DNA from: Eledone cirrhosa
Taxonomy: Eukaryota
NCBI GenBank assembly: GCA_964016885.1
Contig: OZ024743.1
Span: 333,870,001-333,934,000, forward strand
Reading direction: 5' to 3'
Length of the DNA: 64,000 nucleotides
This document shows, piece by piece, positions 5,696 through 63,020 of this stretch (position 1 is its first letter; every line of letters starts with the position of its first letter). The translations under genes were made by a program, and so were the position numbers. Under the pieces are notes generated by a model. The model searched no databases. It was not told where the DNA came from and saw nothing but the letters and a program-made list of their open reading frames with translations.

Positions 5696-5774
<79 letters not shown>

Positions 5775-5953: not shown

Positions 5954-6037
5954 ACCTTTACCGATCGGTTTCGAATCCCAAAAATAAAACGGAGACCATA
6001 CGGCCTTCGTTGCAAAGAGAGATTCTCGTCAGAAGGT
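5954..6037 (-). ncRNA. Type I hammerhead ribozyme
   Basis: acctt CTGACGA gaatctc...gggattc GAAA ccgatcgg TA aaggt; stems I, II and III all pair. Confidence 0.8.
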
Positions 6038-6436: not shown

Positions 6437-6520
6437 ACCTTTACCGATCGGTTTCGAATCCCAAAAATAAAACGGAGACCATACGGCCTTCGTTGCAAAG
6501 AGAGATTCTCGTCAGAAGGT
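6437..6520 (-). ncRNA. Type I hammerhead ribozyme, second tandem copy
   Basis: Same sequence as 5954-6037. Confidence 0.8.
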
Positions 6521-7312
6521 TCTTTTCATTCAAAGAATATAAAATTCCTGAATTTAAATCACAAACTAGCGCTATCAAAAACTGTTCCTGGGATGAGAGT
6601 GGATGATGTAGAACAGGTTTATCAAGGGCCGTAGCAAAGATAGAGGCAAAAGGAGGTAGGTCAAACTAGCCACTGCTATTGCTAGCAGCAGTCGGAATGA
6701 CCCGGTTTGTTCTCAACGTTAGTGGAGGTAGTAGTAATATGAAATACGTTCCTTCACGCACAAGGCGCCAAGGTACGCATGTATTGTCCAACCAAATGCC
6801 AATGTGGTTAAATGGCGGGTTAATAAATTAACGAGCCAGAACAAATATAAACAAGGTTTAGTAAATAATGAAAAAGTTTCAAAATAAATTTTAAAAAATT
6901 GACTTTACCTACTATAGTTACCTTTACCGATCGGTTTCGAATAATTTATTTTGAAACTTTTTCATTATTTACTAAACCTTGTTTATATTTGTTCTGGCTC
7001 GTTAATTTATTAACCCGCCATTGAATCACATTGGCATTTGGTTGGACAATACATGCGTACCTTGGCGCCTTGTGCGTGAAGGAACGTATTTCATATTACT
7101 ACTACCTCCACTAACGTTGAGAACAAACCGGGTCATTCCGACTGCTGCTAGCAATAGCAGTGGCTAGTTTGACCTACCTCCTTTTGCCTCTATCTTTGCT
7201 ACGGCCCTTGATAAACCTGTTCTACATCATCCACTCTCATCCCAGGAACAGTTTTTGATAGCGCTAGTTTGTGATTTAAATTCAGGAATTTTATATTCTT
7301 TGAATGAAAAGA

Positions 7313-8947: not shown

Positions 8948-9016
8948 ATATATATATATATATGTATATAATTATAATTATAATAGAATTATATAGCTGT
9001 ATACAAATATGTATGC

Positions 9017-9164
9017 GAATTTCGTATATCTAAAGATATACGGTATGTTTATAAATAAACATTCTGAAAACCACAGCTATGATAGAACACCAGTCTTCTA
9101 TCATAGCTGTGGCTTTCAGAATGTTTATTTATAAACATACCGTATATCTTTAGATATACGAAAT

Positions 9165-15308: not shown

Positions 15309-16294
15309 AGATGAGTCGCTAACGCTTTCTTCACTCTCTCAAAATCCGCCAGGTGCGTTGCATTTAATGAAATGTTCATATTCTTCTGTCGACAGTTTTT
15401 AACAATTTCTGTCAGCGAGGACAGTAAGCTGGAACAATTAGGCACGAATCGCCTATAAAAATTCACAAGGCCCAAGAATTGCCGTAATTGTCGAAGCGAA
15501 CTTGGCGGAGGCAAATCCAAAATTGCCTTAACTTTTTCCGGAAGGGGCCGAATACCATCAGCATCAATAAGATGGCCCAAAAATGTTAGCGATGTCGAGC
15601 CGAAAACACACTTAGCGGCATTAACACGAACATTATATTTCTGTAAACGCCGAAATAAGATATCCAAATGTTTGGAATGTTGTTCAGGAGAAGAACTAGC
15701 AATCAGTACATCATCAATATACGTGTAAACAAAATCGAGACCACGAGTGACATCATCCATGAATCGTTGGAAAGTACTTGCAGCATTTCTAAGTCCGAAA
15801 GGCATAGTGAGGAACTCGAATGATCCGAAAGGAGTGGCAATAGCAGTCTTTGGGATATCCTCCTTTTTAACCGGAATTTGATTATAAGCGCGGATCAAAT
15901 CAAGCTTAGAAAAGATTCTGCAACCCTGCAATGACGATGCAAAATCCTGTAAATGCGGGATTGGATAACGGTCAGGCACAGTAATCGCGTTTAAGCGTCG
16001 GTAGTCACCCGTCGGTCTCCAATCACCAGAAGATTTAAGTACCATATGCAGAGGCGATGCCCAAGGACTTGTGGAACGCCGAATTATTCATAATTCCAGC
16101 ATGTGGTCGAATTCAAGACGTGCAGCTTTCAACTTCTCTGCAGATAATCTTCGAGGACGTGAGAAAACGGGTGGACCTGTAGTGGATATAAAGTGTTCAA
16201 TCACATGATCCGGACTAACAATTCGTAATCTTCCTTGCGTCAGCTGTGGGAATGATTTTAACAAACTGTGATACTGGTTGCCCACTTCAGCCAA
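15176..16294 (-). pseudogene. Gypsy reverse transcriptase, disrupted
   Basis: [30 protein letters not shown]; stop at ~16088 and frameshift before RNase H. Confidence 0.93.
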
Positions 16295-16386
16295 GAAAAA
16301 AGCAGGGCTTACTGTGGCGATTCGTACGTTCGAATGGCCGTGTTGTTGATTGCTCGTAAATTGATATTTGATTCAGATGGGTTTTT

Positions 16387-17343
16387 TTAAAGATAACTGA
16401 CTGGCCAAATACTTAGTGACGCGCCAGTGTCGACAAGAAAAAACTTTTTTGACTGCAGATCGTACACAAAAAGATGACGGTTTGGTCGAGTTTCCCAGAG
16501 TTCACTAGCTGCCCCTAGTGGCTCTGATTGACGTTTTTCCGAACTCCTATAGTTGCAAGGCGCCCGACAGCGCTGCGCCCGACTGCCAAAGTTAACATGA
16601 TACCAACAAATCGAAGAATTACTGCTGCCTGAAGTGTAGTGTTGGCGAGGAACAGAAGACGGTGGCGAACGGTACTCGTAGCGGTTTCGAGGAATAGCAG
16701 ACGGAGGCGAACGGTACCTTAAACGTTGAGAAGGCTCTCTATGTTGTACAGTCAAATCTTCTACCTTTTTGGTGAGAGCTTCAATCAACTCCAACAGTCT
16801 GCTGTCGGCCACAGAAGAATTGCGTGGGGGGACGCAAGCCGAAGCCACATAAGGATTATGCCGATTGCTGTTCGAATCCACCTCAAGTATTCTATCCGCG
16901 GACGCGGCAAGTTGCTCTAACGACTCCCTCTCCAAACTATTAACCAAAATCCTTTGCGCACTTGGCGGTAAACGTGAGAAAAAGAGCTGCTTTATGAAGG
17001 GGGTGTCAATCCCCTGGGAGTCGCTCAACTCCCGCAAATGTCGCAAATAGGAGCTCGGCTTCCTGTCACCCATTTGAGCATCGTCCAACAACTCCTGAAA
17101 ACGACTCTCTACCGACTTGGTATTTCGACGAAGAATTTCGTTTTTTAATGAGCCGTAGGTAACGTCGGCGTCCAAATCCGTCACAACGTCCTTCACCGAG
17201 AATGCCAAGGAAACAGGTAGGCCATTGATCAGGACCTTCAGCTTATGCTGTTCTTTTGTCTGTGTTAATTCAAAGAAACATTCCAGCTGCGCAAACCACA
17301 ACTTGATGTCGCCTACGAAGGACGGCAAATGATGTTGACTCAT
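16387..17343 (-). CDS. Gypsy Gag with start of aspartic protease
   Basis: WFAQLE, CWYH..FG..A..C..PC knuckle, FLVDTGA; protease truncated. Confidence 0.88.
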   Translation of the reverse strand: MSQHHLPSFVGDIKLWFAQLECFFELTQTKEQHKLKVLINGLPVSLAFSVKDVVTDLDADVTYGSLKNEILRRNTKSVESRFQELLDDAQMGDRKPSSYLRHLRELSDSQGIDTPFIKQLFFSRLPPSAQRILVNSLERESLEQLAASADRILEVDSNSNRHNPYVASACVPPRNSSVADSRLLELIEALTKKVEDLTVQHREPSQRLRYRSPPSAIPRNRYEYRSPPSSVPRQHYTSGSSNSSICWYHVNFGSRAQRCRAPCNYRSSEKRQSEPLGAASELWETRPNRHLFVYDLQSKKFFLVDTGASLSIWPVSYL

Positions 17344-17677
17344 GGTGCCACGTATTTGATGAATTTTTGGTGTTGGTTAATAGTTAGCCAGGTGTTGCTG
17401 CTGATGGCTGGTACTTGGTGGTAGCCGTTTTGAAATACTGCTAATTTTTTTTTCTTAAAAAAAAAACATTTGATTAAAAAAAAAAATCATTTTCCATGAA
17501 AGTTATGACAGAAATATTGTGCAGGCCACGTGCTTCAACAAATGAAATATTATGAATTTTATGGACTTACGCTAAGTGAGTCTAGCTACCAGATTCGAAC
17601 ACTCCAAATGTTAAGCCACTCCACATTGCCGTTAAAACGAATGGCGAATTCAAATAGGCTGCGTTTTCATACTTAAT

Positions 17678-30474: not shown

Positions 30475-33400
30475 CTAACTACCCCATACCCCTCCCCCAC
30501 TCTCCACCTTTATTATTTGGACCAATCACAAGTCAACGCCATATGCTATCAATTCTGGTTGCTTTTCGATATGATGGATGGACTAAGGAATTTCTGGAGA
30601 GTCTGAAGAATCTGGACACTCGAAGACAATGACAAAGATAATGACAAATTCACCTCATGCTGCCGGACGAAAGGGCAAGGCCCCCTCCTCTTTGTTGCAG
30701 CCGCGGATGGCCAACATAAACCCCTCCCCCTCACCCCTCCCTGCGCCCCACCCACCAAACGCAATCCAAAACTTCAGAGTTGGTACCATGAATGTAGGCA
30801 CCTTAAAAGGCCGCTCTAACGAGGTTGTAGAAATGCTTCAACGTAAGGAGGTTGATGTTTGCTGTATCCAAGAGACCAGGTGGAGGGGCGGGTCTGCTAG
30901 ATTCATTGTGGGTAAAAAACGATGCTATAAGCTTTTATGGGTGGGAAATGACAATGGGCTGGGTGGGGTAGGAATCATGTTAGCAGAAAAATGGGTGGAT
31001 AAGATAATAGACGTAAATAGAGTGAATGACAGAATAATTAAAATAAGACTTGTTCTAAATAGAACTAATGTGACAGTAATATCTGCGTACGCGCCCCAAT
31101 CCAGCCTGTCTGGCGCTATAAAAGACAGATTCTATGAGACATTGATGCTCACTACCTCCCAAATAACCGACAGTGACTATATAATTATTGCTGGCGACCT
31201 AAATGGTCACGTTGGACAACATTGTGACGGCTATGACGGGATCCATGGAGGCTATGGGTTTGGTACTAGAAATGAGGAAGGCTGCTCCAGAATCCTGGAA
31301 TTCTGTGACGCAAATAACCTAACTATCTGTAACACTAACTTCAAAAAACGAGACAATCACTTGATCACCTACAGATCAGGGGAACATACCAGCCAGGTAG
31401 ATTATATCCTTACCAGAAGACGTGACAGAGTGTCTGTTGTAAACACTAAATCCCTCCCCCATGAAGAGTGCACCTCCCAACATAGACTGATAATTAGCGA
31501 CCTCATAGTCAGGACGAGACGTACTCGACAGCAGAAGAGGACTATCCCCAGGAGAAAAATATGGAAGCTAAAGGACGCCACAGCCAGAAATAAATTTAAA
31601 AGCATATTACTTGATGCTTTCGACAGTAAGGAAGAGCATTTAGAGTCGTACATTATAGAGGAACAGTGGGAATTCCTGAAAGCAAACCTGCTGATGGCGG
31701 CAGACGAAGTCTGTGGCTGGAGCAGGCCTATAGGCAGGAGGAGAGTAACATGGTGGTGGAACAGTAAGGTGGAGGAGTCAAAAAGCAGGCTTGGAAAGTA
31801 TGACGGGATGGGGGAAGTAGAGAAGACTATCAAGTGGCTAGGAGGGAAGCTCGGAGACAAGTGTACTTCGCAAGAAGGGAAGCAGAGGAAAGAAAGTTCA
31901 AGTATGTTCTACAACGCGAGGACCAAAAACGTGAGGTGTTCAGGATTGCTAGGCAATGTGTCAAGGAAAACCGTGATATTGTCGGGGAGAAGTGTGTACT
32001 TAATGATGATGGCGTACTTGCCATCACTGACGCTGATAAGAAGGTAGCTTGGAAGTGTCACTACGAAAGGCTACTAAATGAAGAGAATAAATGGGAGAAA
32101 GACAGTCTCCCCCACATCGACCCAATAGAGGGACCAGCAGTGTTAGTCGAAGGTAGTATAATAAGTAAGGCAATCAAAGATATGAAGACGGGTAAGGCGG
32201 CTGGGCCTTCGGAAATAGTTGCTGAAATGCTGAAAGCTTCTGGAACGGTGGGACACACCATCGTCACCCGGACAGTAAACCGAGTCATACAGAATGGAGT
32301 TGTTCCGAAGGACTGGCGTAGCAGCATCATCATTAACTGCTACAAGGGTAAAGGAGATGCCCTAGATAGGATTAACTATAGAGGCATTAAATTACTCGAC
32401 CAGGTCATGAAGGTCACAGAAAAAGTAATAGTGCAACTAATCAGAGAGAGAATTGATCTAGATGAAATGCAGTTCGTGTTTGTGTCAGGCAAAAGTACCA
32501 CAGACGCTCTTTTCATTGTACGACAACTACAGGAGAAGTACCTAGCTAAAAGTAAACCCATATACTTAGCTTTTGTCGACTTGGAGAAAGCCTTCGACAG
32601 AGTTCCCCGTTCCATTATCTGGTGGGTTCTTAGAAAACTAGGTGTTGATGAATGGCTTGTGAGAGCTATACAAGCCATGTATAAAGAAACAGTCAGCAAG
32701 GTTAGAATTAACAACGAATATAGTGAAGAGTTTAGCGTAAAAGTTGGTGTTCATCAGGGCTCCGTTCTTAGCCCCCTACTATTTATTATTGCCCTTCAGG
32801 CTATAACAGTGGAGTTCAAGACCGGCTGCCCATGGGAACTCCTATACGCAGATGATCTAACGCTCATAGCTGAATCAATGGCCGAACTAGAGAAGAAATT
32901 TCAAACATGGAAGCATGGCCTAGAATCAAAAGGCCTTAAAATTAACCTGTCTAAGACTAAAGTTCTAGTTTGTAGGAAGGAAAATAGGGCGCCGGTCCCA
33001 TCTGGGAAATGGCCATGCTCGGTGTGTAGGAAAGGAGTAGGTAGAAACTCCATTTTATGTCCCAAATTCAAAGTATGGGTGCATAAAAGATGTAGTGGGA
33101 TCACAGGTAAGCTAACTAAGAACATAGATTTTATATGTGGCCGGTGCTCTGGTGCAATAAGTAGCAGGAAGTGCCCCCAGAATACTAGCTCATTCCATTG
33201 CACAGATGGTTCTATAGAAATAGTGGACAGCTTCCGTTACCTGGGTGACAAAATCAGCAGTGGGGGAGGGTGCTCTGAAAGTACAGTAGCTAGAGTCAGA
33301 ACTGGATGGAAAAAGTTCAGAGAGCTTATACCACTATTGGCCGCTAAAGGGTTCTCCCTAAAAATGAAAGGCAGGCTGTATGATGCCTGCATACGAACAG

Positions 33401-34187
33401 CAATGTTACATGGCAGTGAGACCTGGGGATTGTGTGCAGAGGATATACGCAGACTGGAGAGGAACGAAGCTTGCATGCTCCGCTGGATGTGTAATAGTAA
33501 TATACGTGAACGGCAAAGCATAAACGAACTAAGGGAAAAATTAGAAATAAGAGGGATCAGATGTTGTTTACTCGAGAGAAGGCTACGTTGGTATGGTCAC
33601 GTGATGCGCATGAAAGACGACAGCTGTATAAAAAAGTGCAGGGCAATAAAAATAGACGGTAGCCACGGAGTAGGCAGACCCAGAAAAACCTGGGACGACT
33701 TGATAAATTCCGACCTCACACACTTACACCTCTCCAAGACAATGTCACTGGACCGAGATCTTTGGCGCTACACAATAATAGAGAAGATCCGCCTTACCTA
33801 AGTACAAAGTGAAACCTACTACAGTCAGTAGGCACCTCTAACAAAATACACCCCCGTCCCACTACCCCCACCCCATCCACACCACCCCTTTCAATGTAAA
33901 GTTATGTTGGTACCACAACATCCAGCCCGAAACAAATGAGGTCGTGTAGGTGTCACGACAAAAAAACACACAGTCCACGCTGTAATGTGGCCGTGTACGT
34001 AACACGGTAAAAACCTCCCAGTTCCACACTGTAAATGTGGTTGGTGTTAGGAAGGGCATCCAGCCGTAGAAAACCCGCCAGACAGTCCTATGCAAGCAAG
34101 ACAACCACTCTTGCCTCAAGTGGGAAAACTCCCTTCCAAACCCATGCAAGCGTGGAATATGGACGTTAAACGATGATGTTGATGATG

Positions 34188-34220: not shown

Positions 34221-36458
34221 GTTAGAGAAGCAAAAAAATTGCTTATTGTGATCCAGTTTCATGGATGGTTTCAACGTACGGTTAGGGGTAACTCCACAAG
34301 TTTGTAAGAATTCCGTTCAATCTTGGAGTATAAAGTATAAAAGAGAAAACAGGTAAGCATTAAGAGAAGGATTTTATCCAGGTATTTACGACCGTTTCAT
34401 TGGTAAGTGCAACCTTATATTGCTATACTGCAAATAGCAGCCACTCAATTATAATTGTTGTTCACAGTCCAAATTTTCAATATAGTAAGTTACTCTTGAA
34501 ATAATTCTTAATATATAGAGAAAAACATTTATTTGGAATTGTATTTACTAGTATATAGAGAGAGGAATCAGAAGGTGAGGGGACAGACGGAATAGTATAG
34601 AGAGAGAGAGGAGGGGGGAAGAGGTAGGAAGTAGAGTGACAAACTGAGATGGAGGGAGGGGTAGAGGTGGAAGGAGTCTTTGGTCAGTTTTGATAGCAGA
34701 CTTCATGTCGTGGAATGTAGTGAGTTAAAAAGAATTAAATTGATCATAGTGGGAGGGATGGTTAGAGAGGGAGAGAGAGAGAGAGGGGGGGAATATAAGG
34801 AGATAAATATATATATATATATAAAATAAAGATAAAGATAATAATGACAAAAATAAAAGCAAAGAAGGGGGTGAGAAAGAAGAAAAGAAAAGATAGCCAA
34901 GAAGGGGAGGGAAGGAAGGAAGAAAACGAAGAAATAGAAGAGGGAGAAGAGAGGGATATATGCATTGGTTTTGTGGGTAATTAAAAGGGTTTAGATACAA
35001 CAAGAGGGTATAAAGTTTAAGTATATGTAGTTTGTCAGTTGGTAGTAAGAGGTTAAGGGTTCGATTTGTAGTGCGAAAACTTCTCTTTGAGTCTATGGTT
35101 ACAATAAGTTGATTTTCGATTTTATTGTTGAGTAACTTATTCTTCGAACTCAAGATGTGGAACAGCTCAAGGTCGCATAATCGACAGCTTCTCATACCAC
35201 TCTGATATGGGGGCGCGTTCGATAATTTTTTCCACTTCAGGGTGTATTGATGGTTACTTTCCCTCAGTTGCCAGGTCTTGTTTGCAATGGTAGTTACATA
35301 ACGATGCTGGGAATGTTTCATTGCGTAACGGTGTGTATACCAACGGGCTTTAAATGTATTCCCAGTCGCTCCGATGTAATACCATTTCTGGTTGTCTGAT
35401 TTCACTGTGCATTGGTAAACCAGGTTAGACTGCATACATTCATTATGTAATGGACAGGTTTCAGGTAGGTGGCAGTTACAGTTCTTGTCATGGGCAACTT
35501 TGGCATTATTGGTGAGCTGCGATGCCTGTACAAGTGTGTTACGTTTTGTTTGCCTATTAGCGGGTGGTTGTGTATTAGATATTCTGTTGTGTTCGGTGGT
35601 GATTGTATTGTTATTGTTGTAAATTTGCGTTTTGGTGTTGTTATGTATCTTTTTAGGGTTGAGTATCTTAATGTGTGCCTCTATATTTGGTGCCGTGGAG
35701 TAAGATAGTCTAATAGATTTAGTGTTAAGGATTTTGCTGTATCTATGTGAATCTGGAAAGTGCTTATTTATTATTCTAAAGAAGGTAGAGGGTAGGTTAG
35801 TACTAATAGAGGTGTTAATATGGGGTTATACCAAATATATTTTCTACTGCGTGACTTGTTTGATTTCGATGTTGTATTTCTATTTGCCGTATACTTTGCA
35901 GTTCTAAGCGTAAGTGCGTGTGTGCGTGTGTTACCGGAGTTTGTGTTATACGTGTTCGTGTGCGCTTCACGGAGGCTTTCATCTATATATTCTACTCTAT
36001 CTAAGTGGCCTGCCTTGTCTAATGCGGTATTGTAGTATTCTGCATGTTCTTCGAAGATTTGTCGGTTGGACGAGAGGCGGGAGATCCTAAGGGATATGCT
36101 GCGTTGAATGGATTTAATTATGGATAGTGGGTGGTTTGAGTTACAGTTGTGGTATGCTAAGTTTTCATTAATCTTGTGAAAAGGTCTTATAAGTCCCGTA
36201 TTTAGGTTAAGCGTCGCGTCTAGAAAGTTAACTGTTTTAGTGCTATACTCATACGTTATGCTAAGGTCTAGTTTCCCGAGAGTCTTTCTAATATTCTTAC
36301 GGAGTCTTTTTATGCTCTGGTTATTTAGGTTCTCAATTATAATTGAGTGGCTCCTATTTGCAGTATAGCAATATAAGGTTGCACTTACCAATGAAACGGT
36401 CGTAAATACCTGGATAAAATCCTTCTCTTAATGCTTACCTGTGTTTTCTCTTTTATAC
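34221..36458 (-). mobile_element. Naiad-like PLE, 5'-truncated, with inverted pLTR segment at its 5' end
   Basis: VNFLDATLNL, SNHP, SISLRISRLSSN, WYNP; CNCHLPETCPL; LVYQC..YIG; 34335-34437 inverted at 36355-36458. Confidence 0.88.
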
Positions 36459-39571: not shown

Positions 39572-40978
39572 AACAAAAGATGGTTAAAAGAGTTCCATGT
39601 ATTTTATTATGCGCATTTCAAAAACAAATATCATCATGCAATAATATTTGTGTTTTCATCAGATAAAACAGGAAGACATGATATGAAGGTTAAAAAACAC
39701 TTGTGGATAGTTCAGTTTTAAATCAACATATGAGAAGTAGTTTTAGATTGATGTGTGATATTGGGAAAAATATTTTATTTAGAGGGGGGGGTTGGAAATG
39801 ATGAAAAAGAGGAGGAGATGAGAGTAAAAAGTGGAGAGGGAGGAGTATAATGAGGAAGGATGAGATAGGAGGAGAGATGGGTGATAGAGAGAGAGAGATA
39901 GCTTTTATAACTGAGAAAGATATATTGTTTTACATAGAGAGGTTGAAAACCGTTGGAAGATAATGTATAAATTAAAAGAATTTGAAAATTAACGAAGAGA
40001 AAAATAATGTAAAGTTAAGGTTTGTATATTGAGGGGTTTAATAATATGTGCGATGAAAAAGAAAATGTTAATATGTATTGAGAATTATATTTAAGGGTTT
40101 AATAATATGTGCGATGTTAAGAAAATGTTGATATGTATTATTAAAAGGAACAACAGGTTATTTAAGTAAGGAAATATTGTGAGATGAGCATGAATGAGTT
40201 AGATAAAAGGGAGAAAAGAATAATGAATTGAGGATGAATAATCTAACGTAAAAAAAAATGTATATGTTTACGAAGGATTTTTACAAGGTGATATAGAGTA
40301 AGAATGTATTGTATTATGTAATAATTGATTCTATGTTAGGCAAGAGTGAGAAAAGGTACAGATTAGGGGTTAGACATTAAAAGAAGAAGAGAAGAAAGGG
40401 AAGTGATAAATAGGAGCGATGTAGAATGAGTAACAAGTATTATAGAATGTATAATAACCTTTGAAATAAGGTAGAAAGATGGGTATATTTTTAAAAGAAG
40501 TGTATATATATATATATATGTGCCTTTGAGAAAAAGATTCTAAATTGATAAAGAATTGAATATTAGCTGTATACTTTGTGAAATGTTTTATGGAATTTAT
40601 GCAAGCAGATAGAAAACAAGTCAGTGCGTCTATTTATTATAGAATCTAAATTAGATATAATGGTAAATTTTTCATTTAGACAGAGATTGCAAATTTTGGA
40701 TAGAGAACTGTTCAAGTATGGAGACGCAGAAGAAACCTTCTTCCAAAAGATGCTATATTTAATATTTTTGTCTTTCAAGGACCATATGAGTTCTGATGAA
40801 AACACAAATATTATTGCATGATGATATTTGTTTTTGAAATGCACATAATAAAATACATGGAACTCTTTTAACCATCTTTTATTCTTATATATTATGTATA
40901 CTCCAGTCCTACAAACTGTAGAGTGCTTCTTATCCGATATCTGCATTGCTTTATTGTACTACAATAAAACTCACCTCC

Positions 40979-45380: not shown

Positions 45381-48300
45381 ATTCAAGAAAGAAGAGTGAC
45401 ATGGTTCGCTATACAATAAGGGCTTTATTCACATTGCTGACAATTATTTCTTTGATCTGGCAGGTCTAGAGTTCGCTACCCGCCTGATTTTGCGTCAATC
45501 GATCTCCAATACTTTGTTTATAACCAGTCGTTTTCATCAGAGCACGCGAAATGAAGAAGATACACAAGGCATGGCTTTTATATAGGTGTGGTATTAAACC
45601 AGAACAATAATATCAATAATAAAATAAAATAACTAGATAGCAAATAGTTAAAATAATAACATCAATGTAAGTAAGAAATAGAGTATAATGATGAATCTAG
45701 CATGTTAAACAACTTGATATAATACAGATGTATGAAATTGACATGTGAAAACTGCTATAGGGTACATTAGATATAGTGTTAAGGTGGCGACGAGATAACA
45801 GTAACCACTAAAATGTACTTGGAGACAGGATTTATGTGGTATCTGCTATGCTGGCAATAAACCGGACCTTAATACATACAATAATTTCATTCGACGTGAA
45901 CTACACAAAAAATACAAAAAAACAAATGAATCTACACTCACTAGCATTAATAAGGAAGGTCTTAGCATAGTAAAAAAACTAGAAATATCCGCCAGAACCG
46001 AACCTCTAGCCCCATGCAACCCCACATTTAACCTTAAACATCACAAACATAATTTTGAAACAAACCCTACTATTAGATTAATATGCCCATCCAAGTCGGA
46101 TATAGGTAAAATTAGCAAGAATATTCTAGATAGGGTAATCGCACAAATTAAGGGAAAACTAGAAATCAATTTATGGGGTAACACTAATGAAGCAATTGAA
46201 TGGTTCAATAGAATAAGAAATAGAGAAGCATGTAACTTCATACAATTTGACATAAATGATTACTACGCATCCATATCCCCAGTCACCCTAGATAAAGCGC
46301 TAATATTTGCCCAAAATAATTCGGACCTTACCCCAGATGAAATTAAAATAATACTAGCAGCTAGAAGGACTATCATAAAATTTGAAAATAGCTACTGGGA
46401 AAGAAAAAATAGGATGAACAGCTTCGATATCACAATGGGATCGAACGATTCAGCACAAATAACAGATGTTGTGGGGATATTTATAGCACACAACCTACAT
46501 AAAGAATTTAATAACCTCTAAGGAGGGATTTATAGAGATGACACGCTCCTTATAGCTAGGAACTTAAATAACCAGACATGAAAAGATTAAGAAAAAACAT
46601 TAGAACATTCTTCAAAAAACTAGGCCTAGATATTACCTACGAACTGAATTCTAAAAAGGCAAACTTTCTAGACGTAACTCTAAACCCAAGCACGGGATTA
46701 ATAGAAGCCTTCCACAAAAACAATGAGAATCTAGCCTACATTAGTTATAACTCAAACCACCCCGATCCATAATTAAATCCATAGCACGTAGTATATCCCT
46801 TAGAATATCCCGCTTATCCTCAAACCAAGAAATTTTTAAAGAACATGCTAACTATTATAACTCAGCATTACATAGGGCTGGACACAAAGAAAAGCTGCAG
46901 TTTATAACGGATAAGAACAACACAAATAAACCCATTAACACCGACACCAACCGCTCTTACAAAAATAAAGGTAACCGGACTAAACATAGAACTAGGCAAA
47001 TAGCACCTAGAGTAGGAGGACCGAACACGAATAATGTAAACCCCAGAAACTATAGAAGAACTAGAGAAAGAAAATACCTATGGTTTAATCCAATCTTCAA
47101 CTCCTCTATAAGAACTAGACTGCCTTCTACGTTTTTTAAACTAATAGATAAGCACTTCCCTATATCGTATAGATATCATAAAATCTTCAATAGAAAAACT
47201 ATAAAACTCTCATACTCTACTGCTGCCAACATTGAATCGCACATACGCAAGATCAACCACAAGAATACCTCTAGGAAAGATATTCCACCTATACGCAACA
47301 TAGCACCAAACACAAAACACAAACACATTACCGTATCACAACCACAAACGCACATGAACGCACCACAGCAAAACTTCAATAGGCATGAATCACAACCCAC
47401 ATATAACAGTTTGCAAAACCGCAATGTGGAAGCTGCACAGAGTAATACCCCGAGCTGCAACTGTCACCTACCGGATAAGTTCCCATTAGCGAATAGGTGC
47501 CTTGATTCTAGCCTAGTGTACATGTGTACTGTAAAATCGTGCAACTCCACTTGGCACTACATTGGATCCACCGCGGGTGTTTTTAAAAAAAAGATGGTAT
47601 GTGCACAGACATTCAATGAAGAACCGTGCACTGGTAAGTTCTACAACCCTCACCAATAAAATCTGGCAACTTAAGGACAAAAACCTTGATTACAATATTA
47701 GCTGGTCGAAATTGGCGGCCGCAAAGACATATAGCAGCGGTATGTCCCACTGCGGGCTCTGCAACCTTGAATTGTTGCATATATTAAGGAACGATAAAAT
47801 GCTACTCAACAGCAAAATAGAAAGGTCAATTTTCTGCAGACATAGGATTGCTACAAAATTCGCGAGATTTAAACAACTGTGATTCGAACCAATACCACTT
47901 AGCTTTTAACATATGAAACCCGCATTCTCACACAGCCCACTACAGACCCATAATCTTCTATAAGCACCTTCTAGCCTCCCTAATTCTATACCACTGGGAT
48001 ATGGCAGTAATGTTTACAACTATCTTATCAGCCTATAAATCAATCCCATCTTTGCTGTTATTCACTCCTTCGGACCAAACAATTATCTATCTCATTAGCA
48101 CTCATGATCTCTAACAGATGAACTTAATTCTAAGTACATTATCTTATAGGCGGTGGATTGGCAGTATCGGTAGAGGGTCGGACGCCATGCTTTCCAGCAT
48201 AGTTACGTCCCTTTACGATCTGAGTTCAAATCCCGCCGAGGTTGACTTTGCCTTTCATCCTTACGGGGTCGATAAAATAAAGTACCAGTAATGCACTGGG

Positions 48301-49368
48301 TAATTGCTGGCGTGGTGCCTAAAGTAGAAACAATTATCTTATTACTCCTACACTCATTGAAATCTTACTTTCCTCTTATTCTTCTTCTTCTTATTATTAT
48401 TATTGTGAACATCTCAATGTATCCCTAATATTATTTATCATGTTCTCTATATCTACCATGCATATTTTACTATTTTATTACCTTTATTGCTTCTATTATT
48501 GCTGTTATTACTGTCTTATTTATACACGATTTGTTATTGGTGCTGTAAAAACTAAACCCACATGATTCGAACTAACAATCCCTACCTTTAGTATAGGCCA
48601 CTTAAATAACGAATCTACAACTCCACTTAACACCACATAAAAACCATCATCCTCACTAAATTGATAAAACGAAAATGTTTAGCTGTCAAACAATAAGTAA
48701 ATCTCCGGTTTATTGCTAGAATACCTACAGCACAGTGGATACCTCATAAATTCTGTCTCCAAGTACATTTTAGTGGTACTGTTATCTCGTCGTCACCTTA
48801 ACACTATATCTAATGTACCCTATAGCAGTTTTCACATGTCAATTCCATACATCTGTATCATATCAGTTTGTTTAACATGCTAGATTCTTCATTATACTCT
48901 ATTTCTTACTTATATTGATGTTATTATTTTAACTATTTGCTATCTAGTTATTTTATTTTATTATTGATATTATTGTTCTGGTTTAATACCACACCTATAT
49001 AAAAGCCATGCCTTGTGTATCTTCTTCATTTCGCGTGCTCTGATGAAAACGACTGGTTATAAACAAAGTATTGGAGATCGATTGACGCAAAATCAGGCGG
49101 GTAGCGAACTCTAGACCTGCCAGATCAAAGAAACAATTGTCAGCAATGTTAATAAAGCCCTTATTGTATAGCGAACCATGTCACTCTTCTTTCTTGAATT
49201 ATTATTACTCCAAGTATAAACTACATAGAAATCACCGCGAACTCGCAGCATCACTATGGAAACGTCTTGTTGAGTCAAACTAAGCCACACGTTAATACTA
49301 TCTACTACACGGAGTACTCTAACTGGACTACATCTAAGTGGACTGCCATAACGATAACCTGTTATCCC

Positions 49369-49369
<1 letters not shown>
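45381..49369 (+). mobile_element. Naiad-like PLE with ~460-bp inverted pLTR copy at the 5' end
   Basis: Hand-translated RT: RLICPSKSDIGKISK, FIQFDINDYY, FDITMGSNDSAQ, IYRDD; CNCHLP..PL..C; GIY-YIG to 47882; ~45381-45840 inverted at ~48740-49200. Confidence 0.92.
48149..48336 (+). mobile_element. SINE inserted in PLE 3' UTR
   Basis: Full family sequence; TSD attatctta. Confidence 0.9.
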
Positions 49370-49454
<85 letters not shown>

Positions 49455-49555
49455 AAGTGTGTGTATATGTGTGCTTGAATCATGCAGAACGAAAGTGTGT
49501 GGCAGGCAGATAGTGAAAGAGAAAGAGTGAGCCATATATATATATATATATATAT

Positions 49556-52174
49556 ATTGGAATAAATGCTCTGAAATAGCGATATATATGTGAATATAGA
49601 CATAGAATATTCGAAAATATTCTGTATGTTTATAATAAACATTTTGAAGACCTAATCGCTATAGAATAGAATACGTCACGTATTACAATTAGATTCTCGA
49701 TAAAAGCAAGGGAAGTAATCTACGCGTTTCATTCTCGTTAGAAATCATCAGGACTACATATCCAGTGCTTTTATCGAGAATGACACAGCTAGAGACTTAT
49801 AGAATACTTAGCTGTGTACAGGAACTGGTTTGAAAGAGCGGTTGCCGGTCCGGCAGAAATTAGAAATTGGAATAAATGCTCTGAAATAGCGATATATATG
49901 TGAATATAGACATAGAATATTCGAAAATATTCTGTATGTTTATAATAAACATTTTGAAGACCTAATCGCTATAGAATAGAATACGTCACGTATTACAATT
50001 AGATTCTCGATAAAAGCAAGGGAAGTAATCTACGCGTTTCATTCTCGTTAGAAATCATCAGGACTACATATCCAGTGCTTTTATCGAGAATGACACAGCT
50101 AGAGACTTATAGAATACTTAGCTGTGTACAGGAACTGGTTTGAAAGAGCGGTTGCCGGTCCGGCAGAAATTAGAAATTGGAATAAATGCTCTGAAATAGC
50201 GATATATATGTGAATATAGACATAGAATATTCGAAAATATTCTGTATGTTTATAATAAACATTTTGAAGACCTAATCGCTATAGAATAGAATACGTCACG
50301 TATTACAATTAGATTCTCGATAAAAGCAAGGGAAGTAATCTACGCGTTTCATTCTCGTTAGAAATCATCAGGACTACATATCCAGTGCTTTTATCGAGAA
50401 TGACACAGCTAGAGACTTATAGAATACTTAGCTGTGTACAGGAACTGGTTTGAAAGAGCGGTTGCCGGTCCGGCAGAAATTAGAAATTGGAATAAATGCT
50501 CTGAAATAGCGATATATATGTGAATATAGACATAGAATATTCGAAAATATTCTGTATGTTTATAATAAACATTTTGAAGACCTAATCGCTATAGAATAGA
50601 ATACGTCACGTATTACAATTAGATTCTCGATAAAAGCAAGGGAAGTAATCTACGCGTTTCATTCTCGTTAGAAATCATCAGGACTACATATCCAGTGCTT
50701 TTATCGAGAATGACACAGCTAGAGACTTATAGAATACTTAGCTGTGTACAGGAACTGGTTTGAAAGAGCGGTTGCCGGTCCGGCAGAAATTAGAAATTGG
50801 AATAAATGCTCTGAAATAGCGATATATATGTGAATATAGACATAGAATATTCGAAAATATTCTGTATGTTTATAATAAACATTTTGAAGACCTAATCGCT
50901 ATAGAATAGAATACGTCACGTATTACAATTAGATTCTCGATAAAAGCAAGGGAAGTAATCTACGCGTTTCATTCTCGTTAGAAATCATCAGGACTACATA
51001 TCCAGTGCTTTTATCGAGAATGACACAGCTAGAGACTTATAGAATACTTAGCTGTGTACAGGAACTGGTTTGAAAGAGCGGTTGCCGGTCCGGCAGAAAT
51101 TAGAAATTGGAATAAATGCTCTGAAATAGCGATATATATGTGAATATAGACATAGAATATTCGAAAATATTCTGTATGTTTATAATAAACATTTTGAAGA
51201 CCTAATCGCTATAGAATAGAATACGTCACGTATTACAATTAGATTCTCGATAAAAGCAAGGGAAGTAATCTACGCGTTTCATTCTCGTTAGAAATCATCA
51301 GGACTACATATCCAGTGCTTTTATCGAGAATGACACAGCTAGAGACTTATAGAATACTTAGCTGTGTACAGGAACTGGTTTGAAAGAGCGGTTGCCGGTC
51401 CGGCAGAAATTAGAAATTGGAATAAATGCTCTGAAATAGCGATATATATGTGAATATAGACATAGAATATTCGAAAATATTCTGTATGTTTATAATAAAC
51501 ATTTTGAAGACCTAATCGCTATAGAATAGAATACGTCACGTATTACAATTAGATTCTCGATAAAAGCAAGGGAAGTAATCTACGCGTTTCATTCTCGTTA
51601 GAAATCATCAGGACTACATATCCAGTGCTTTTATCGAGAATGACACAGCTAGAGACTTATAGAATACTTAGCTGTGTACAGGAACTGGTTTGAAAGAGCG
51701 GTTGCCGGTCCGGCAGAAATTAGAAATTGGAATAAATGCTCTGAAATAGCGATATATATGTGAATATAGACATAGAATATTCGAAAATATTCTGTATGTT
51801 TATAATAAACATTTTGAAGACCTAATCGCTATAGAATAGAATACGTCACGTATTACAATTAGATTCTCGATAAAAGCAAGGGAAGTAATCTACGCGTTTC
51901 ATTCTCGTTAGAAATCATCAGGACTACATATCCAGTGCTTTTATCGAGAATGACACAGCTAGAGACTTATAGAATACTTAGCTGTGTACAGGAACTGGTT
52001 TGAAAGAGCGGTTGCCGGTCCGGCAGAAATTAGAAATTGGAATAAATGCTCTGAAATAGCGATATATATGTGAATATAGACATAGAATATTCGAAAATAT
52101 TCTGTATGTTTATAATAAACATTTTGAAGACCTAATCGCTATAGAATAGAATACGTCACGTATTACAATTAGAT
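49556..52174 (-). repeat. 310-bp tandem array (~8.4 units), one HHR per unit; short inverted end 52175-52220
   Basis: aataaatgct recurs at 49561, 49871, 50181, 50491, 50801, 51111, 51421, 51731, 52041. Confidence 0.97.
49715..49757 (-). ncRNA. Minimal type I hammerhead ribozyme, first of 8 copies (each +310, last 51885-51927)
   Basis: gtagtc CTGATGA tttct-aacg-agaat GAAA cgcg TA gattac; stem I extended by a 16-bp helix (49693-49708 / 49766-49781). Confidence 0.88.
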
Positions 52175-52801
52175 ATTTTCGAATATTCTATGTCTATATT
52201 CACATATATATCGCTATTTCTTGATATATTTCTTTTTTATTTTTCTTTTCTTTTTATTTCTAAATTTATAGATACATTTATAAATAGGCAGCTTGCTGAC
52301 ACCGCTAAATACTGACCTCTCCCCCCCCACCTACTTTCTGTATCTGGATCTAAATATGTGTGGCAGTGTTTATGTGCGCGCATTAATGTCCATATGCTTA
52401 TGATAATAGTATATACACACATATATATGTGTGTGGGGGTGTGTGTGTGTATGTATGTTCGTGGTTGTGTGTATGTTTATGCGTATACGCGCGTGTGTGT
52501 GTGAATGTACGTATATGTGTGAGTATATAAATGTGTGTGTATATTTGTTTTTATACGTATTTTATTTGTAGATTATAAACATACAGAGACATTAGCCTTG
52601 AATTTTTGTATTTACATACATCTTTTTGGCATGCGTATGCATGTGAACATACATCTTTATGCATATCTGTGAACGAAGTTAATTACATATATACACACAC
52701 TTAACTGTATAAATTTTTTGTATTTTCATTGGTCAATTTGAATTCTGTTCCCAAACAGACCTGTAATTTTGAATTGTGTTATTATCAATAAATATATTTC
52801 A

Positions 52802-57381: not shown

Positions 57382-57431
<50 letters not shown>

Positions 57432-57847
57432 CATACATGCACACATATATATATGTACGTATGGATATGGATTCACCGAACATTTATTATAATTCTCGGT
57501 GTGTTTGTAAACAAACATTCCGAATTAAGCCGTACAGTGTCTAGCAACCATCGTTGCTCATTTGTTCAACACTGACAAAGGAACGCTATACTAGTTTCAA
57601 GCTTATTAGCTATCGTCAGCAACGTATACCTTCCTGCCAGATGGTTGAACGTCTGAAAGTATATACTTTCCTTATGCATATTAACGGCTGAGCAGCCCAA
57701 TTTGCATATCGAGTGAGTTAATCGGCCGGGGTACCGAAAACGATAAACGGAAAAAATGAAACGAAATTTCATTTCTCAATCTTAGTACGGCTGTTACTTA
57801 AATATAAGTATGTATACGTACATACATATATGTATACAGACGTACAG

Positions 57848-57933
<86 letters not shown>

Positions 57934-58274
57934 GCACACATATATATATGTACGTATGGATTCACCGAACATTTATTATAATTCTCGGTGTGTTTGTAAA
58001 CAAACATCCCGAATTAAGCCGTACAGTGTCTAGCAACCATCGTTGCTCATTTGTTCAACACTGACAAAGGAACGCTGTACTAGTTTCAAGGTTATTAGCT
58101 ATCGTCAGCAACGTATACCTTCCTGCCAGATGGTTGAATGTCTGAAAGTATATACTTTCCTTATGCATATTAACGGCTGAGCAGCCCAATTTGCATATCG
58201 AGTGAGTTAATCGGCCGGGGTACCGAAAACGATAAACGGAAAAAATGAAACGAAATTTCATTTCTCACTCTTAG
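57228..58274 (-). repeat. ~470-490-bp tandem unit (~2.2 copies) with internal (TA)n and HHRs at 57583-57625 and 58072-58114
   Basis: acgttg CTGACGA tagct-aata-agctt GAAA ctag TA (t/c)agcgt; fragment also at 42121-42227. Confidence 0.88.
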
Positions 58275-58394: not shown

Positions 58395-60115
58395 TAGGGT
58401 AAGGGTATTAGTGAGAAATACTAATCTTATTTAAACCACAAGGAATCTAGATCTATAACAAGAAATTAAATTAATTGATAGGTATACTTATAAGGATACA
58501 TTTATATTAATTCATAAAACAAATTAGTCTATATACCTTGCACCAATAATACTTCAAACATACAACCCAATATTACCAACAAACACTAAATGAAAAACCC
58601 ACACCTAAATGCCACTCATACTACACCCCAAAATACCAACCTAAAACTTAATTTCTCTACCTCTTCTCACATAAAATATAATGACTTTCAAAAAACCATT
58701 CATCCTAATACTCCAATATATGTTAACAACATTACTAACAAAATTCCTAGTAATCAGACTCAAACACCTAAATCAGTTAATCTAACTAAACCTATATATA
58801 ATAAATTCACTAATACTAACTCTCTTAGTTAACATCCTGATACATCGTATAAATATAAAAAAACAATATCGAAACCGTAATAGACGGGTTACTTGGTATA
58901 ATGCTCCATTTAATCTACAAATTAAAGATAATATCCCTAAACAATTTTTACTATCCTAGAGAAAAACTTCCCGCCAAACCATAAATACCATCAAATTTTA
59001 AATAGATCAACTGTCAAATTTTCCTACTCCACTACCAAAAATATACAACAAAATATAAGTGCGTACAACGCATATAAATGTAAAAAACCCCACAAATATA
59101 CCGCCAACACATCAAACCACCCATAATACTAAAATAAACTGCAACAAACCACCATCTCCTTCACCTATAACAAGTCGAGTATATTCCACACCAAATTTGA
59201 CTAACTCTCCTGATATAATATTCACGAATGGTTGTAACTGTAGAATCAAAAGAAATTGCCCATTAAAGAGAAATTGTCTTATTAATAACATAGTCTATAA
59301 ATGTAAAATTATCAATAAGGACTCCACTTATTCATATATAGGAGCTACGTCTAACCAATTTAAAGTAAGATTTAATAGTCACAAACATAGTTTTAAAAAT
59401 GCCGCATTAGCTAATACAACATCCTTGGCTGAAACAATTAATAATTATAGAAAGAAGAATATTGATTACAATCTGACCTGGAGTGTGTTCAAAAGGGCCA
59501 CCCCTTATCAAAATAACAGATATGAGTGTAGATTATGCTCCCAGGAACTTTTTGAAATCATGAAATCTAAGGATATATACTATTAAATAAGCGCCAGGAA
59601 TTAATTATATCTTGCAATCATAGAATTAGAAGAACCTTCAAATATTATAAACCTAATTAATATACACCTTACACTTATATTCTACATATTATTATAATTA
59701 GTTTTTTTAATTTAGTTAACCTATAATTAGTAATTTACTACATAGAACTTCATAATTTTATTTCCCTCTTACAGCTCTTTTCCTAAAATTAATACCTAAA
59801 AGTATACCTATAAATTAATCTAACTTCCTGTTATGAATCTAAATTCCTTGTAGTTTATATAAGATTGGTATTTCTCATTACTACCCTTATACCCAAATTT
59901 TACTTTCCTTCGTTTTTTAACAACATTCTTTAATAACATCTGATTCTTATTTATCACATTCATATGAATTAATATAAATTTATCCTTAGAAGTATACCTA
60001 TCAATTAATTTAATTTCTTGTTATAGATCTAGATTCCTTGTGGTTTAAATAAGAGTAGTATTTCTCACTAATACCCTTACCCTAAAATTTTATTTTCCTT
60101 CGTTTTTAACATTAT
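58395..60115 (+). mobile_element. Naiad-like PLE 3' part with 5' inverted segment
   Basis: WYNAPF; CNCRIKRNCPLKRNC; IVYKC..YIGAT..FKVRFNSH; CRLC; ~58395-58515 inverted at ~59965-60087. Confidence 0.88.
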
Positions 60116-60400: not shown

Positions 60401-63020
60401 CGTCTTTCTTGTTTAGGAGTTGGTCCTTCGAAAACAGCATTTGTAATGTTTCCTCCGAGCATAAGTTACACGGACGGCGTCCTCCCGTGTAAGAGTTAGC
60501 TCTGGACAGTAAGCTCCAAGTGAGATTGTAGGTTATATTATTATCTTGGAGGTCCCAGATGTGGCCTGAAAATGTAGTGGCGTGTCGCCGGACCGGGTTT
60601 CGGAAAGTATGTCGGTGTTAGTAGAGCCGGGTCTTGAAGTCACACGCGGTTAATCCTATATAAGCTTTGTTGGAGGTGTCCGTCCTCACGTTGCACTGGT
60701 AGATCACGTTACGTTCTCGGCATTTGTTGTTGAGGGGGCACGTAGATCTATCAGGGCAGTTACACCTCCTGGTCGGCTCTCCACTGATGTCTAGTGAGAC
60801 TTACCCTATGGGTCAGCACCCAGGAAGTAATCTCATGGTTCAGGAATATGGAGGACAAACGAGACACAACATTCATCCAGTTTGAAATAGAGAGTTACTA
60901 TGTATCTATTACCTTACCGCTCCTTACGGCCGCCTTGGACTTTGCCGAAACACTCACACCCATCACTGACCAGGAATGAAATATCATTCTCCACGCCAGG
61001 AAGACAGTCCTACTTTTCGACAACTTCAAGTGGATAAAGAGAGCTCCCGACTCCCCCTTCGGCGTCAGTATGGGCGCGACGGATTCGGCCGAGGTCACTG
61101 ATCTTATAGGATTATTCCTACTATTTAAACTCACCGAAATGTTTCCTGCATCCGGCGGTGGATTGTACCGGGATGATGGGCTCCTCACCCTCGAAGGGTA
61201 CAACCCCAGTAGTACAGACCGGGTCCATAAACAACTAATCAACTTCTTCCGGGACTGGGGATTTAAAATCACCCTACAAACGTCCCTAACCCGAGTCAAT
61301 TTCCTGGACGTTACCCGTAACCTCGAAAATGATCTGTACTACCCATACAGAAAACCAAACGACAACCTGCATTACATCCACCACCGCTCTAACCATCCTA
61401 GAAACATCACCAATAACCTGGTTAAAAACATCTCCCTCCGCATATCTCGTTTGTCCGCTAATGAGCAGATATTCGACGAACACGCGCCTCATTACAACCA
61501 GGCTCTCAAGCGGAGTGGCTTCCGGGAGGAAATATCCTTTTATCCAGCTTCCCTTAACGGAACCAGCAGGCGACACCGCCGCTCACGCAACTTACCGTGG
61601 TTCAATCCTCCCCATAATGCCGAGGTGGCAACACCTATCGGGAAAATCTTCTTTAGACTCCTCGAAAAACACTTCCCACTACAACACCGCTACCACAACA
61701 TAATCAACAAAAACACCATCAAACTCTCCTAGAGCACCACACCTAACTTCACACAAAACATCGTCTCCTCAAACATTAAAAAAACTCAACCCCTATGGAA
61801 GAAATAACCTAGACATCAGTGGAGAGCCGACCAGGAGGTGTAACTGCCCTGATAGATCTACGTGCCCCCTCAACAACAAATGCCAAGAACGTAACGTGAT
61901 CTACCAGTGCAACGTGAGGACGGACACCTCCAACAAAGCTTATATAGGATTAACCGCATGTGACTTCAAGACCCGGCTCTACCAACACCGACATACTTTC
62001 CGAAACCCGGTCCGGCGACATGCCACTACACTTTCAGGCCACATCTGGGACCTCCGAGATAATAATATAACCTACAATCTCACTTGGAGCTTACTGTCCA
62101 GAGCTAACTCTTACACGGGAGGACGCCGTCCGTGTAACTTATGCTCGGAGGAAACATTACAAATGTTGTTTTCGTAGGACCAAATCCTAAACAAGAAAGA
62201 CGAACTGGTAACCGCATGCAAACACAGATTGCGTAGGACTTACCTCGCCCTCAAACCCCATAACGACCCGGTTGGGTAGACAAGGGCTGATACCCCCCCC
62301 ACTTGCCGAATAAGTTAGGGGAAACCCCAGCTTACATAGGTAGATGTATCTCTTTTCTCTTCTTTTCCTCATTGTCTTCTTTTTCCCCCTGTCTCATCGT
62401 ATCACTTCCTTCCACCCCCTATTTTTTTCCTCGTCTGATTTTCCCCTTTCGCCTACCCCGATGCAGCCCATCGGGCCTCTGTAGCATCAGTTCCCCCACC
62501 CCTGTAATTTTAAGATAGTATTGGCCGAATACGTTTTACTAACTACTTATAGCAGACGTGTTAAACCCCTTTAATTTTGTATCAGTTTTGGTACTACTCA
62601 ATTTCTACAAGTTTTTTCTATTCTCAACTTATTAATCTGTAATTGTAAGATAGCATTGTGATTTTTTAAATTCATTTCTCACTATCTAATTTTATATATA
62701 TTTTTTATTTTTTTCTATTATCTTTTATTGTCTCCTACTCTCATTCGATTTACCTATTCTATAACCTCCCACCCCTACTTCATACACTATCCTTAGAATC
62801 TGCTGTATACATATCACTTTCAACGCTTGACCGCTCCACTCACTCCCCTATTGTTCTACAGGCAAGTTCAGCCACCCTACCTCCCACCAAATGCCATGAT
62901 AGACTTATTTGTGTTTACAACAAATTTTAACCAATCCTTTTGACAACTACAATCTTCCCATATAAGGAAGTACCCCTTGAAAAGTTCGGCTATTTATTCA
63001 CCAGGCTAAACATTTTAATT
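60401..63020 (+). mobile_element. Naiad-like PLE with an inverted endonuclease-region copy at the 5' end
   Basis: FIQFEIESYY, MGATDSAE, GLYRDDGL, NFLDV, WFNPP, CNCPDRSTCPL, IYQC..YIG; 60401-60794 is the reverse complement of 61809-62202; 3' end uncertain. Confidence 0.9.

What the first reader, a model, noticed from the sequence alone, without database searches (positions are those of the whole stretch)
49556..52220. 310-bp x8 array of highly structured monomers, each with a hammerhead ribozyme (retrozyme-like, candidate circRNA element)
Seen: about 8.4 units with no differences visible by eye and no ORF. Each minus-strand unit holds gtagtc-CUGAUGA-(uuucu aacg agaau)-GAAA-cgcg-UA-gauuac. Stem I continues into a perfect 16-bp helix (attctcgataaaagca/tgcttttatcgagaat). 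Other hairpins in the unit: acacagcta..tagctgtgt, tgccgg-t-ccggca, tgtttataataaaca. The array starts at (TA)n and ends in a short inversion. Established: minimal type I HHRs with a palindromic stem III cleave as dimers and occur in PLE pLTRs and in animal non-LTR retrozymes that make small circular RNAs. Inference: a read-through transcript would be cut into 310-nt monomers, which could circularise and be reverse-transcribed around the circle by a Naiad PLE RT, giving identical head-to-tail copies.
Basis: partly seen in the sequence, partly recalled or inferred. Interest (0 to 1): 0.85.

Follow-up and report, generated by a model that had tools for sequence, protein, structure and literature searches.

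The report
Hammerhead retrozyme pasted from both strands
This is one fresh insertion of an abundant, protein-free jumping repeat whose 310-base unit carries a predicted self-cutting RNA; its copies sit in TA repeats as two back-to-back arrays with one long and one short end, which suggests that a Penelope-type enzyme likely copies one small RNA, probably a circle, from both ends of a DNA cut.

Summary
In detail: 8.45 identical 310-bp units, each with a type I hammerhead on the minus strand, then a 48-bp inverted arm. It is a young animal non-LTR retrozyme family: 16,327 exact marker copies, roughly 1,800 insertions (estimate). Insertions are two divergent arms in (TA)n; all 54 paired ends were one long plus one short end, the Penelope (PLE) 'tail' footprint, also shown by an intact Hydra-type PLE here. 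Both arms share one haplotype (39 variants fixed in both arms of 23 loci; one mosaic locus), either arm may be longer, and inner ends do not pile up at the cleavage site or elsewhere, whereas the PLE's do. Best reading: PLE RT primes both cut strands on one circular monomer. Older sibling families keep the ribozyme by compensatory change, including C3-G8 to U3-A8. Corrections: the neighbouring PLE is Hydra-type, not Naiad; the ribozyme is canonical-type, not minimal; Rfam misses it. Cleavage, RNA, circles and the partner PLE are not shown. The scan reported this family before on other pieces of this genome.

The parts
49556..52174 (-). Long arm: 8.45 identical 310-bp units; RNA-sense 3' end at 49556 = unit position 165 (the 'long' start site), inner end at unit position 27
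52173..52220 (+). Short inverted arm, unit positions 101-148; a variant of the 'short' start site (130-139), ending in TATTTC that also begins the flank (microhomology, inferred from a paralogous flank in L142)
52173..52174 (.). Head-to-head junction of the two arms, 2-nt microhomology
49534..49555 (.). (AT)n target tract at the long end; no target-site duplication can be read in it
49721..50030 (-). One monomer, cleavage site to cleavage site (predicted 310-nt RNA)
49715..49757 (-). First of 8 type I hammerheads (repeat every 310 bp): stem I GUAGUC/GAUUAC, CUGAUGA, U.U-closed stem II, GAAA, palindromic ACGCGU stem III, GUA; predicted cut between 49721 and 49720
49693..49781 (-). 16-bp helix (49766-49781 with 49693-49708) that brackets the ribozyme; kept by compensatory changes in older sibling families
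49556..49662 (-). Unit positions 59-165: segment conserved in older sibling families, holding both start sites (130-139 and 165); likely part of the PLE recognition element (inferred)
45381..49370 (+). Neighbouring frameshifted PLE with RT then C-terminal GIY-YIG (Hydra-type, not Naiad), with its own inverted arm at the 5' side; a separate insertion, not shown to be the helper

Best explanation
This is one very young insertion of a non-coding hammerhead retrozyme that was likely pasted by a Penelope-like (PLE) reverse transcriptase priming from both cut DNA strands on one small RNA, probably a circle. Shown: identical units, the ribozyme motif and its covariation, two divergent arms in (TA)n with one long and one short outer end, one haplotype per insertion, scattered inner ends. 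Inferred steps: (1) an array is transcribed by read-through; (2) paired hammerheads (ACGCGU duplex) cut it to 310-nt monomers, while a lone monomer folds without stems II and III and so would persist; (3) a host ligase closes the circle (by analogy with RtcB in PMC7229834); (4) a PLE protein binds the conserved segment, cuts (TA)n on both strands and starts cDNA at unit position ~165 from one strand and ~130-139 from the other; (5) each RT rolls round the circle a variable number of times; (6) the two cDNAs are joined head-to-head by 1-5 nt microhomology. My odds: retrozyme moved by a PLE about 0.9; separate priming of both strands about 0.8; circular monomer as template about 0.6.
For: Family size: 4,033 exact copies of the window's 43-nt ribozyme, 16,327 of a 26-nt marker, controls 0. 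Ends: 995 long and 1,090 short ends abutting (AT)n. Of 188 listed ends on the first 245 Mb of C1, 54 outward-facing pairs formed, 54 of 54 long+short, none long+long or short+short; 80 ends had no exact-match partner. Of 10 loci picked by the ribozyme alone, 9 were two-armed, all 9 long+short. Same rule in an intact Hydra-type PLE: 8 of 8 insertions with both ends in view, of 10 fetched; the one-sided tail and inverted copy are the published PLE footprint (PMC8557442) and match two in vitro start sites on both strands (PMC11167929). One template: 19 haplotypes among 35 loci with a full unit, 288 units; in the 23 loci with full units in both arms, 39 variants are fixed in both arms and none in one arm only, apart from mosaic L059. 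Independent arms: long-end arm longer in 15 of 32 loci, short-end arm in 17. No 5' end: 0 of 58 inner ends within 10 nt of the cleavage site, at most 15 of 58 in any 40-nt window; control: 27 of 31 divergent pairs of the autonomous PLE are tiny palindromes stopping at one spot ~25 nt behind a TATA-like box. Function under selection: RNAalifold finds the three-way junction unaided, 24 of 53 pairs with compensatory change; C3-G8 is C-G in 6 and U-A in 8 of 14 rows, a core covariation described in PMC4209133.
Against: No RNA, cleavage or circle was observed. L059 is a mosaic (276G in 2 of 5 units of one arm, 5 of 5 of the other), and L050 and L051 carry private variants that recur in non-adjacent units: these need template switching, a mixed multimer or later conversion. 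A long uncleaved read-through RNA from a homogeneous array also lacks a nearby 5' end. The partner PLE was not found: the intact Hydra family has an ~83-nt tail against ~26-35 nt here and shares no sequence with the unit; a second Hydra family shares only core plus stem II. Rfam gives no hit; stem II has only 0.13-0.15 predicted pairing probability. In the 2026 preprint 8 of 9 predicted frog retrozyme dimers did not cleave in vitro, and in PMC11167929 cleavage was not needed for insertion. The covariation rests on about three clades, so on few events; three of my eight proposed helices paired in only 39-62% of cells. The PLE's pile-up could be a hairpin stop rather than an RNA 5' end. The window's own short arm ends at 148, outside the usual 130-139.
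Confidence: 0.6

Rival explanations
1. The PLE primes both strands, but on a long uncleaved linear read-through RNA of a source array; no circle is needed.
For: PMC11167929 found unprocessed RNA to be the main substrate in vitro. The L059 block mosaic fits a mixed linear multimer. The autonomous PLE's truncated arms cross its own cleavage site.
Against: 19 haplotypes fixed per locus need repeated single-unit bottlenecks. Classical twin priming on a linear RNA would stop the first arm near the second start site, but long-arm inner ends are scattered. Arms total 22 units in L051 and over 26 in L050. No carried-over 5' flank was recognised at the two-arm junctions.
Confidence: 0.2
2. The template is a cleaved linear monomer; RT jumps from its 5' end to a 3' end again and again.
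For: L059 needs a switch between templates; 4 of 45 private variant calls lie within 5 nt of the cleavage site, against about 1.6 expected.
Against: 0 of 58 inner ends at the cleavage site; junctions are clean in nearly all of 288 units, and arm-to-arm haplotype mixing occurs in only 1 of 23 loci.
Confidence: 0.08
3. The second arm arises by self-priming or fold-back of the first cDNA, as proposed for head-to-head PLE inversions (PMC3846280).
For: It explains identical haplotypes in both arms and junction microhomology; 2 of 39 junctions sit on the 16-bp palindrome.
Against: A copy cannot exceed its template, yet either arm is the longer (15 vs 17 of 32); each arm ends at its own fixed site in (TA)n; private variants are not mirrored between arms, with one possible case in L051.
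Confidence: 0.05
4. A satellite grown in place by unequal crossing-over or DNA rolling circle from a single PLE-derived end, as the 2026 preprint suggests for tandem amplification.
For: Tandem organisation; recurring private variants in the longest arrays show some local turnover.
Against: Over a thousand dispersed loci with fixed outer ends, two divergent arms of one haplotype and near-zero divergence; the ribozyme is kept by compensatory change.
Confidence: 0.05
5. Assembly artefact.
For: Perfect identity of units could reflect polishing; unit number is not checked with raw long reads.
Against: Locus-specific haplotypes and junctions; the head-to-tail join is present in contigs of 4 of 4 public runs laid, from 4 studies.
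Confidence: 0.02

Closest known systems
Metazoan non-LTR retrozymes (Cervera and de la Pena 2020, PMC7229834; parts 2-4 of 6 read, plus a term search)
   Same: Non-coding, low-GC tandem units of 150-450 bp, each with a type I hammerhead; weak palindromic stem III; U.U at the base of stem II as in axolotl HHR_Amex2; PLEs proposed as helpers, rolling RT on a circle proposed.
   Different: There RNA, cleavage and circles were shown; here none. That paper has 0 occurrences of 'inverted', 'inversion' or 'head-to-head' in its main text and, in the parts read, gives no fixed start sites; its supplement was not seen.
Li, Clavereau and Pollet 2026 (bioRxiv 10.64898/2026.07.22.740005; parts 1-3 of 5 read)
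   Same: Retrozymes as non-autonomous partners of PLEs; average unit about 316 bp in amphibians.
   Different: Their evidence is co-occurrence and pLTR homology, and they suggest local tandem amplification; here the evidence is insertion anatomy, and no pLTR homology beyond the ribozyme core was found. Supplements are closed.
EN+ PLE insertion footprint (PMC8557442, passages and section 11; PMC3846280, passages; PMC11167929, parts 1-2 of 4)
   Same: Inverted 5'-truncated copy, a 30-40 bp tail on one end only, (TA)n targets, two internal RT start sites, both strands cut and extended in vitro.
   Different: Here the cargo is a non-coding monomer repeated many times in both arms; PMC3846280 explains the inversion by self-priming, which the arm lengths here argue against.
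L1 twin priming (recalled, not from a call)
   Same: Both target strands prime on one RNA; inversion joined by microhomology.
   Different: L1 uses the RNA 3' end plus a variable internal site and copies each part once; here both starts are internal and fixed, and each arm spans many unit lengths.

Membership tests
Metazoan non-LTR retrozyme | Tandem units of 150-450 bp, each with a type I hammerhead | tested here: met
Metazoan non-LTR retrozyme | Non-coding, GC under 50%, no tRNA-derived head | tested here: met
Metazoan non-LTR retrozyme | Dispersed multicopy mobile family | tested here: met
Metazoan non-LTR retrozyme | Highly self-paired monomer | tested here: met
   z -3.9, 1 of 100 shuffles as stable
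Metazoan non-LTR retrozyme | Self-cleavage of the transcript | not testable with these tools
   only predicted; covariation supports past function
Metazoan non-LTR retrozyme | Expressed as monomeric circular RNA | tested here: inconclusive
   no RNA holder listed; contigs only
Type I hammerhead | Core CUGANGA/GAAA/NUH with three helices | tested here: met
Type I hammerhead | Match to an Rfam hammerhead model | tested here: not met
   a library miss, not a defining biochemical failure
Type I hammerhead | Loop 1-loop 2 tertiary contacts | not tested
   none
PLE-mobilised element | Inverted 5'-truncated second arm | tested here: met
   9 of 10 loci picked without regard to ends
PLE-mobilised element | 30-40 bp tail at one end only | tested here: met
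   54 of 54 pairs long+short; offset about 26-35 nt
PLE-mobilised element | Sequence shared with the pLTR of an autonomous family | tested here: inconclusive
   only core and stem II shared with one Hydra family; few families examined
Naiad partner | N-terminal GIY-YIG, no canonical hammerhead | tested here: not met
   neighbour and the two traced families have a C-terminal GIY-YIG; Naiads elsewhere in the genome were not searched

The most novel reading that the evidence does not exclude
A PLE dimer cuts both strands of (TA)n and its two RTs start about 30 nt apart on the same 310-nt RNA circle, each rolling round it many times by strand displacement, so that every two-armed array is a clonal record of one circular RNA molecule. 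The same two-start mechanism would explain the long-unexplained inverted copy and one-sided tail of all endonuclease-bearing PLEs.
Probability: 0.45. Interest if true: 0.78.

Novelty: new member of a known kind. Interest (0 to 1): 0.55.

Why it matters
How animal retrozymes are copied into genomes, and how PLEs make their inverted copy and one-sided tail, are both stated as open in the papers read. This family gives over a thousand near-mint insertions whose anatomy ties retrozymes to PLE enzymes, argues against self-priming, and names a 310-nt substrate, two start sites and an intact candidate enzyme for an in vitro test. An RT that rolls a small RNA circle into DNA at both strands would also interest tool builders.

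Tried and rejected
DNA search of the genome with the unit returned nothing, since common words are skipped; patterns were used instead. Rfam: no hammerhead. Pfam: 0 families for 4 PLE proteins or fragments, so the Hydra label rests on motifs from PMC8557442 section 11, not on a tree. No tRNA. Sequencing runs: no RNA holder listed among 6 runs; runs X1 and X2 each hold one 340-nt contig that closes on itself, which a tandem array in DNA also gives; whether they are RNA stays open. Partner search: blastn of the unit against two Hydra families and 942 kb of fetched DNA, tblastn around 30 older-family loci and clustering of 1,013 (TA)n-adjacent ends found no autonomous PLE sharing the start-site segment. 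Absence of fixed variants from the 14 core positions (0 of 31) is weak alone, about 1.4 expected. Three downstream helices derived from the window's fold did not hold in register across families. Literature searches for a prior description of two-armed retrozyme insertions (one search gave 0 papers) listed none by title or abstract start; most subscription papers and several supplements were not visible. The 'octopus' term was my guess from composition; the host was not determined.

Full report
Observation. The array is as described: 49556-52174, 310 bp x 8.45, no differences between units. Each unit has a type I hammerhead on the minus strand with a 6-bp stem I, a 4-bp stem II closed by U.U, a palindromic ACGCGU stem III and a GUA site. 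None of 5000 shuffles fits the descriptor; in the monomer stem I is predicted to form (0.86-1.0) but stems II (0.13-0.15) and III (0) are not, while ACGCGU pairs with itself at -7.5 kcal/mol. That is the dimer-dependent design described for metazoan hammerheads (PMC4209133, passages). Rfam does not detect it. The unit is non-coding and not tRNA-derived.

Family. The genome (3.0 Gb, animal by its repeats; host not determined) holds 4,033 exact copies of this ribozyme and 16,327 of a 26-nt marker, about 5 Mb. From the overlap of long-end and short-end lists (100 x 88 / 54 on 245 Mb, scaled by 1,090/100) I estimate about 1,800 insertions. Private variants number 45 calls in 288 units, so the burst is very recent.

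Anatomy. Numbering the sense unit from the cleavage site, 9 of 10 loci chosen by the ribozyme alone are two divergent arms with 3' ends outward in (TA)n, one ending at 163-170 and the other at 128-139. Genome-wide there are 995 exact long ends and 1,090 exact short ends. Among 188 listed ends, 54 outward pairs formed and all 54 were long+short; 80 ends lacked an exact-match partner. In 45 fetched loci plus the window, 39 junction rows gave 32 long+short; the other 7 are the window, an older subfamily copy and rows split by my chaining or cut by a stretch edge. 22 of 39 junctions have 1-5 nt microhomology, 2 sit on the 16-bp palindrome, 4 are blunt, 11 have a gap. Thirty of these loci were chosen by one end pattern, so only the other end is an unbiased test there. 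The window is an extreme case: a long arm of 8.45 units and a 48-bp arm ending at 148 through TATTTC shared with the flank.

This is the PLE footprint: an inverted truncated copy and a tail at one end only (PMC8557442), which PMC11167929 ties to two internal RT start sites, with both strands cut and extended in vitro. As an in-genome control, an intact Hydra-type PLE (4.5 tandem copies of 3,531 bp, 3 mismatches in 12,354, 784-codon frame) follows the same rule in 8 of 8 insertions with both ends in view, with an ~83-nt tail.

Template. Among 47 sequences examined, 35 had a full unit: 19 haplotypes. In the 23 with full units in both arms, 39 variants are fixed across both arms and none is confined to and fixed in one arm, except that L059 is a block mosaic. 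So each insertion usually comes from one unit sequence. The long-end arm is longer in 15 of 32 loci and the short-end arm in 17, which a fold-back copy cannot give (rival from PMC3846280). Of 58 inner ends from 29 clean junctions (10 rows left out for gaps or splitting), none lies within 10 nt of the cleavage site (3.7 expected), and the spread is compatible with uniform (p 0.10). The autonomous PLE behaves differently: 27 of 31 divergent pairs are tiny palindromes, and 26 of 45 arms stop 30-70 nt upstream of its cleavage site, just behind a TATA-like box, as expected for run-off from a linear RNA's 5' end (inferred; a hairpin stop is possible). The retrozyme template thus shows no 5' end over up to 26 units. 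A circle explains this and the single-unit bottleneck; a long homogeneous read-through RNA explains the first but not easily the second. L059 and recurring private variants in L050 and L051 count against a strict one-circle rule.

Selection. Older sibling families (2,691 exact copies of one marker) are 75-80% identical over positions 59-215 and use the same two end sites. On a 14-row alignment RNAalifold recovers the three-way junction and the long helix, 24 of 53 pairs with compensatory change. The core pair is C3-G8 in 6 rows and U3-A8 in 8, a covariation known from Schistosoma PLEs. The rows fall into about three clades, so events are few, and three downstream helices did not hold in register.

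Helper. Not identified. The neighbour at 45805-47882 is frameshifted and has RT before GIY-YIG, so it is not a Naiad; motifs in related copies fit Hydra, though Pfam names none of them. One Hydra family (7,717 exact ribozyme copies) shares the core and the U.U stem II with the unit and nothing else. Tail lengths of the two traced Hydra families (about 83 nt, and longer than 60 nt) differ from the retrozyme's.

Known and new. The kind is known: non-LTR retrozymes, with PLE help and rolling RT already proposed. I found no paper describing two-armed retrozyme insertions or fixed start sites, within the library's limits and without supplements. Earlier notes of this scan reached the same reading for this family and others; I had recorded my reading before seeing them, and they are not independent support. 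Verdict: a real, new member of a known kind whose insertion anatomy makes an open mechanism testable; RNA-level steps are unshown.

Noticed in passing
G000:C1 437198000-437214400 (L091-L093): Intact Hydra-type PLE in 4.5 near-identical tandem copies. Read by eye, its pLTR holds a hammerhead with the U3-A8 core (UUGAGAA) and a long stem II whose loop contains the TATA-like box, so the full ribozyme would form only in read-through RNA; 10,134 exact copies of a 31-nt part.
   Followed up: partly
L143:7130-7963, L033:5870-6230, L154-L183: Older ~320-bp sibling retrozyme families with different ribozyme helices, many with the U3-A8 core, and the same two end sites.
   Followed up: partly
window 9030-9150: Small palindrome of two short arms, 85% like unit positions 69-107: a diverged relative, beside a Neptune-like PLE fragment at 7660-9029.
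   Followed up: no
window 5769-6942 and 57382-58274: Two other tandem repeats (483 bp x 2.4; 489 bp x 1.8), each with hammerhead motifs (6032, 6515; 57619, 58108).
   Followed up: no
window 18836, 28796, 28931, 39662, 28180, 28298, 38154, 38605: Further hammerhead motifs of at least four families, some as inverted pairs; the one at 39662 lies downstream of a PLE endonuclease fragment.
   Followed up: no
window 45381-49370, 34725-36427, 40563-40958, 59059-59586, 60980-62177: Broken PLE copies with C-terminal GIY-YIG; the first has an inverted copy of its 3' end at 45381-45860.
   Followed up: partly
window 13716-17376, 512-2389, 30587-33801: Gypsy-like LTR retrotransposon frames on the minus strand, and two LINE (RTE-like) frames; labels from recalled motifs.
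   Followed up: no
L041, L047: 311-nt haplotype with one extra C two bases after the cleavage site, fixed in all units of both arms.
   Followed up: partly
L165:1991-2320, L094:387-496, L095:9607-9716: Other non-coding two-armed families in (TA)n with tails of about 32-40 nt; no linked ORF recognised in the flanks shown.
   Followed up: partly
L134:2768-4441: Helitron-like Pif1 helicase fragments (label recalled).
   Followed up: no
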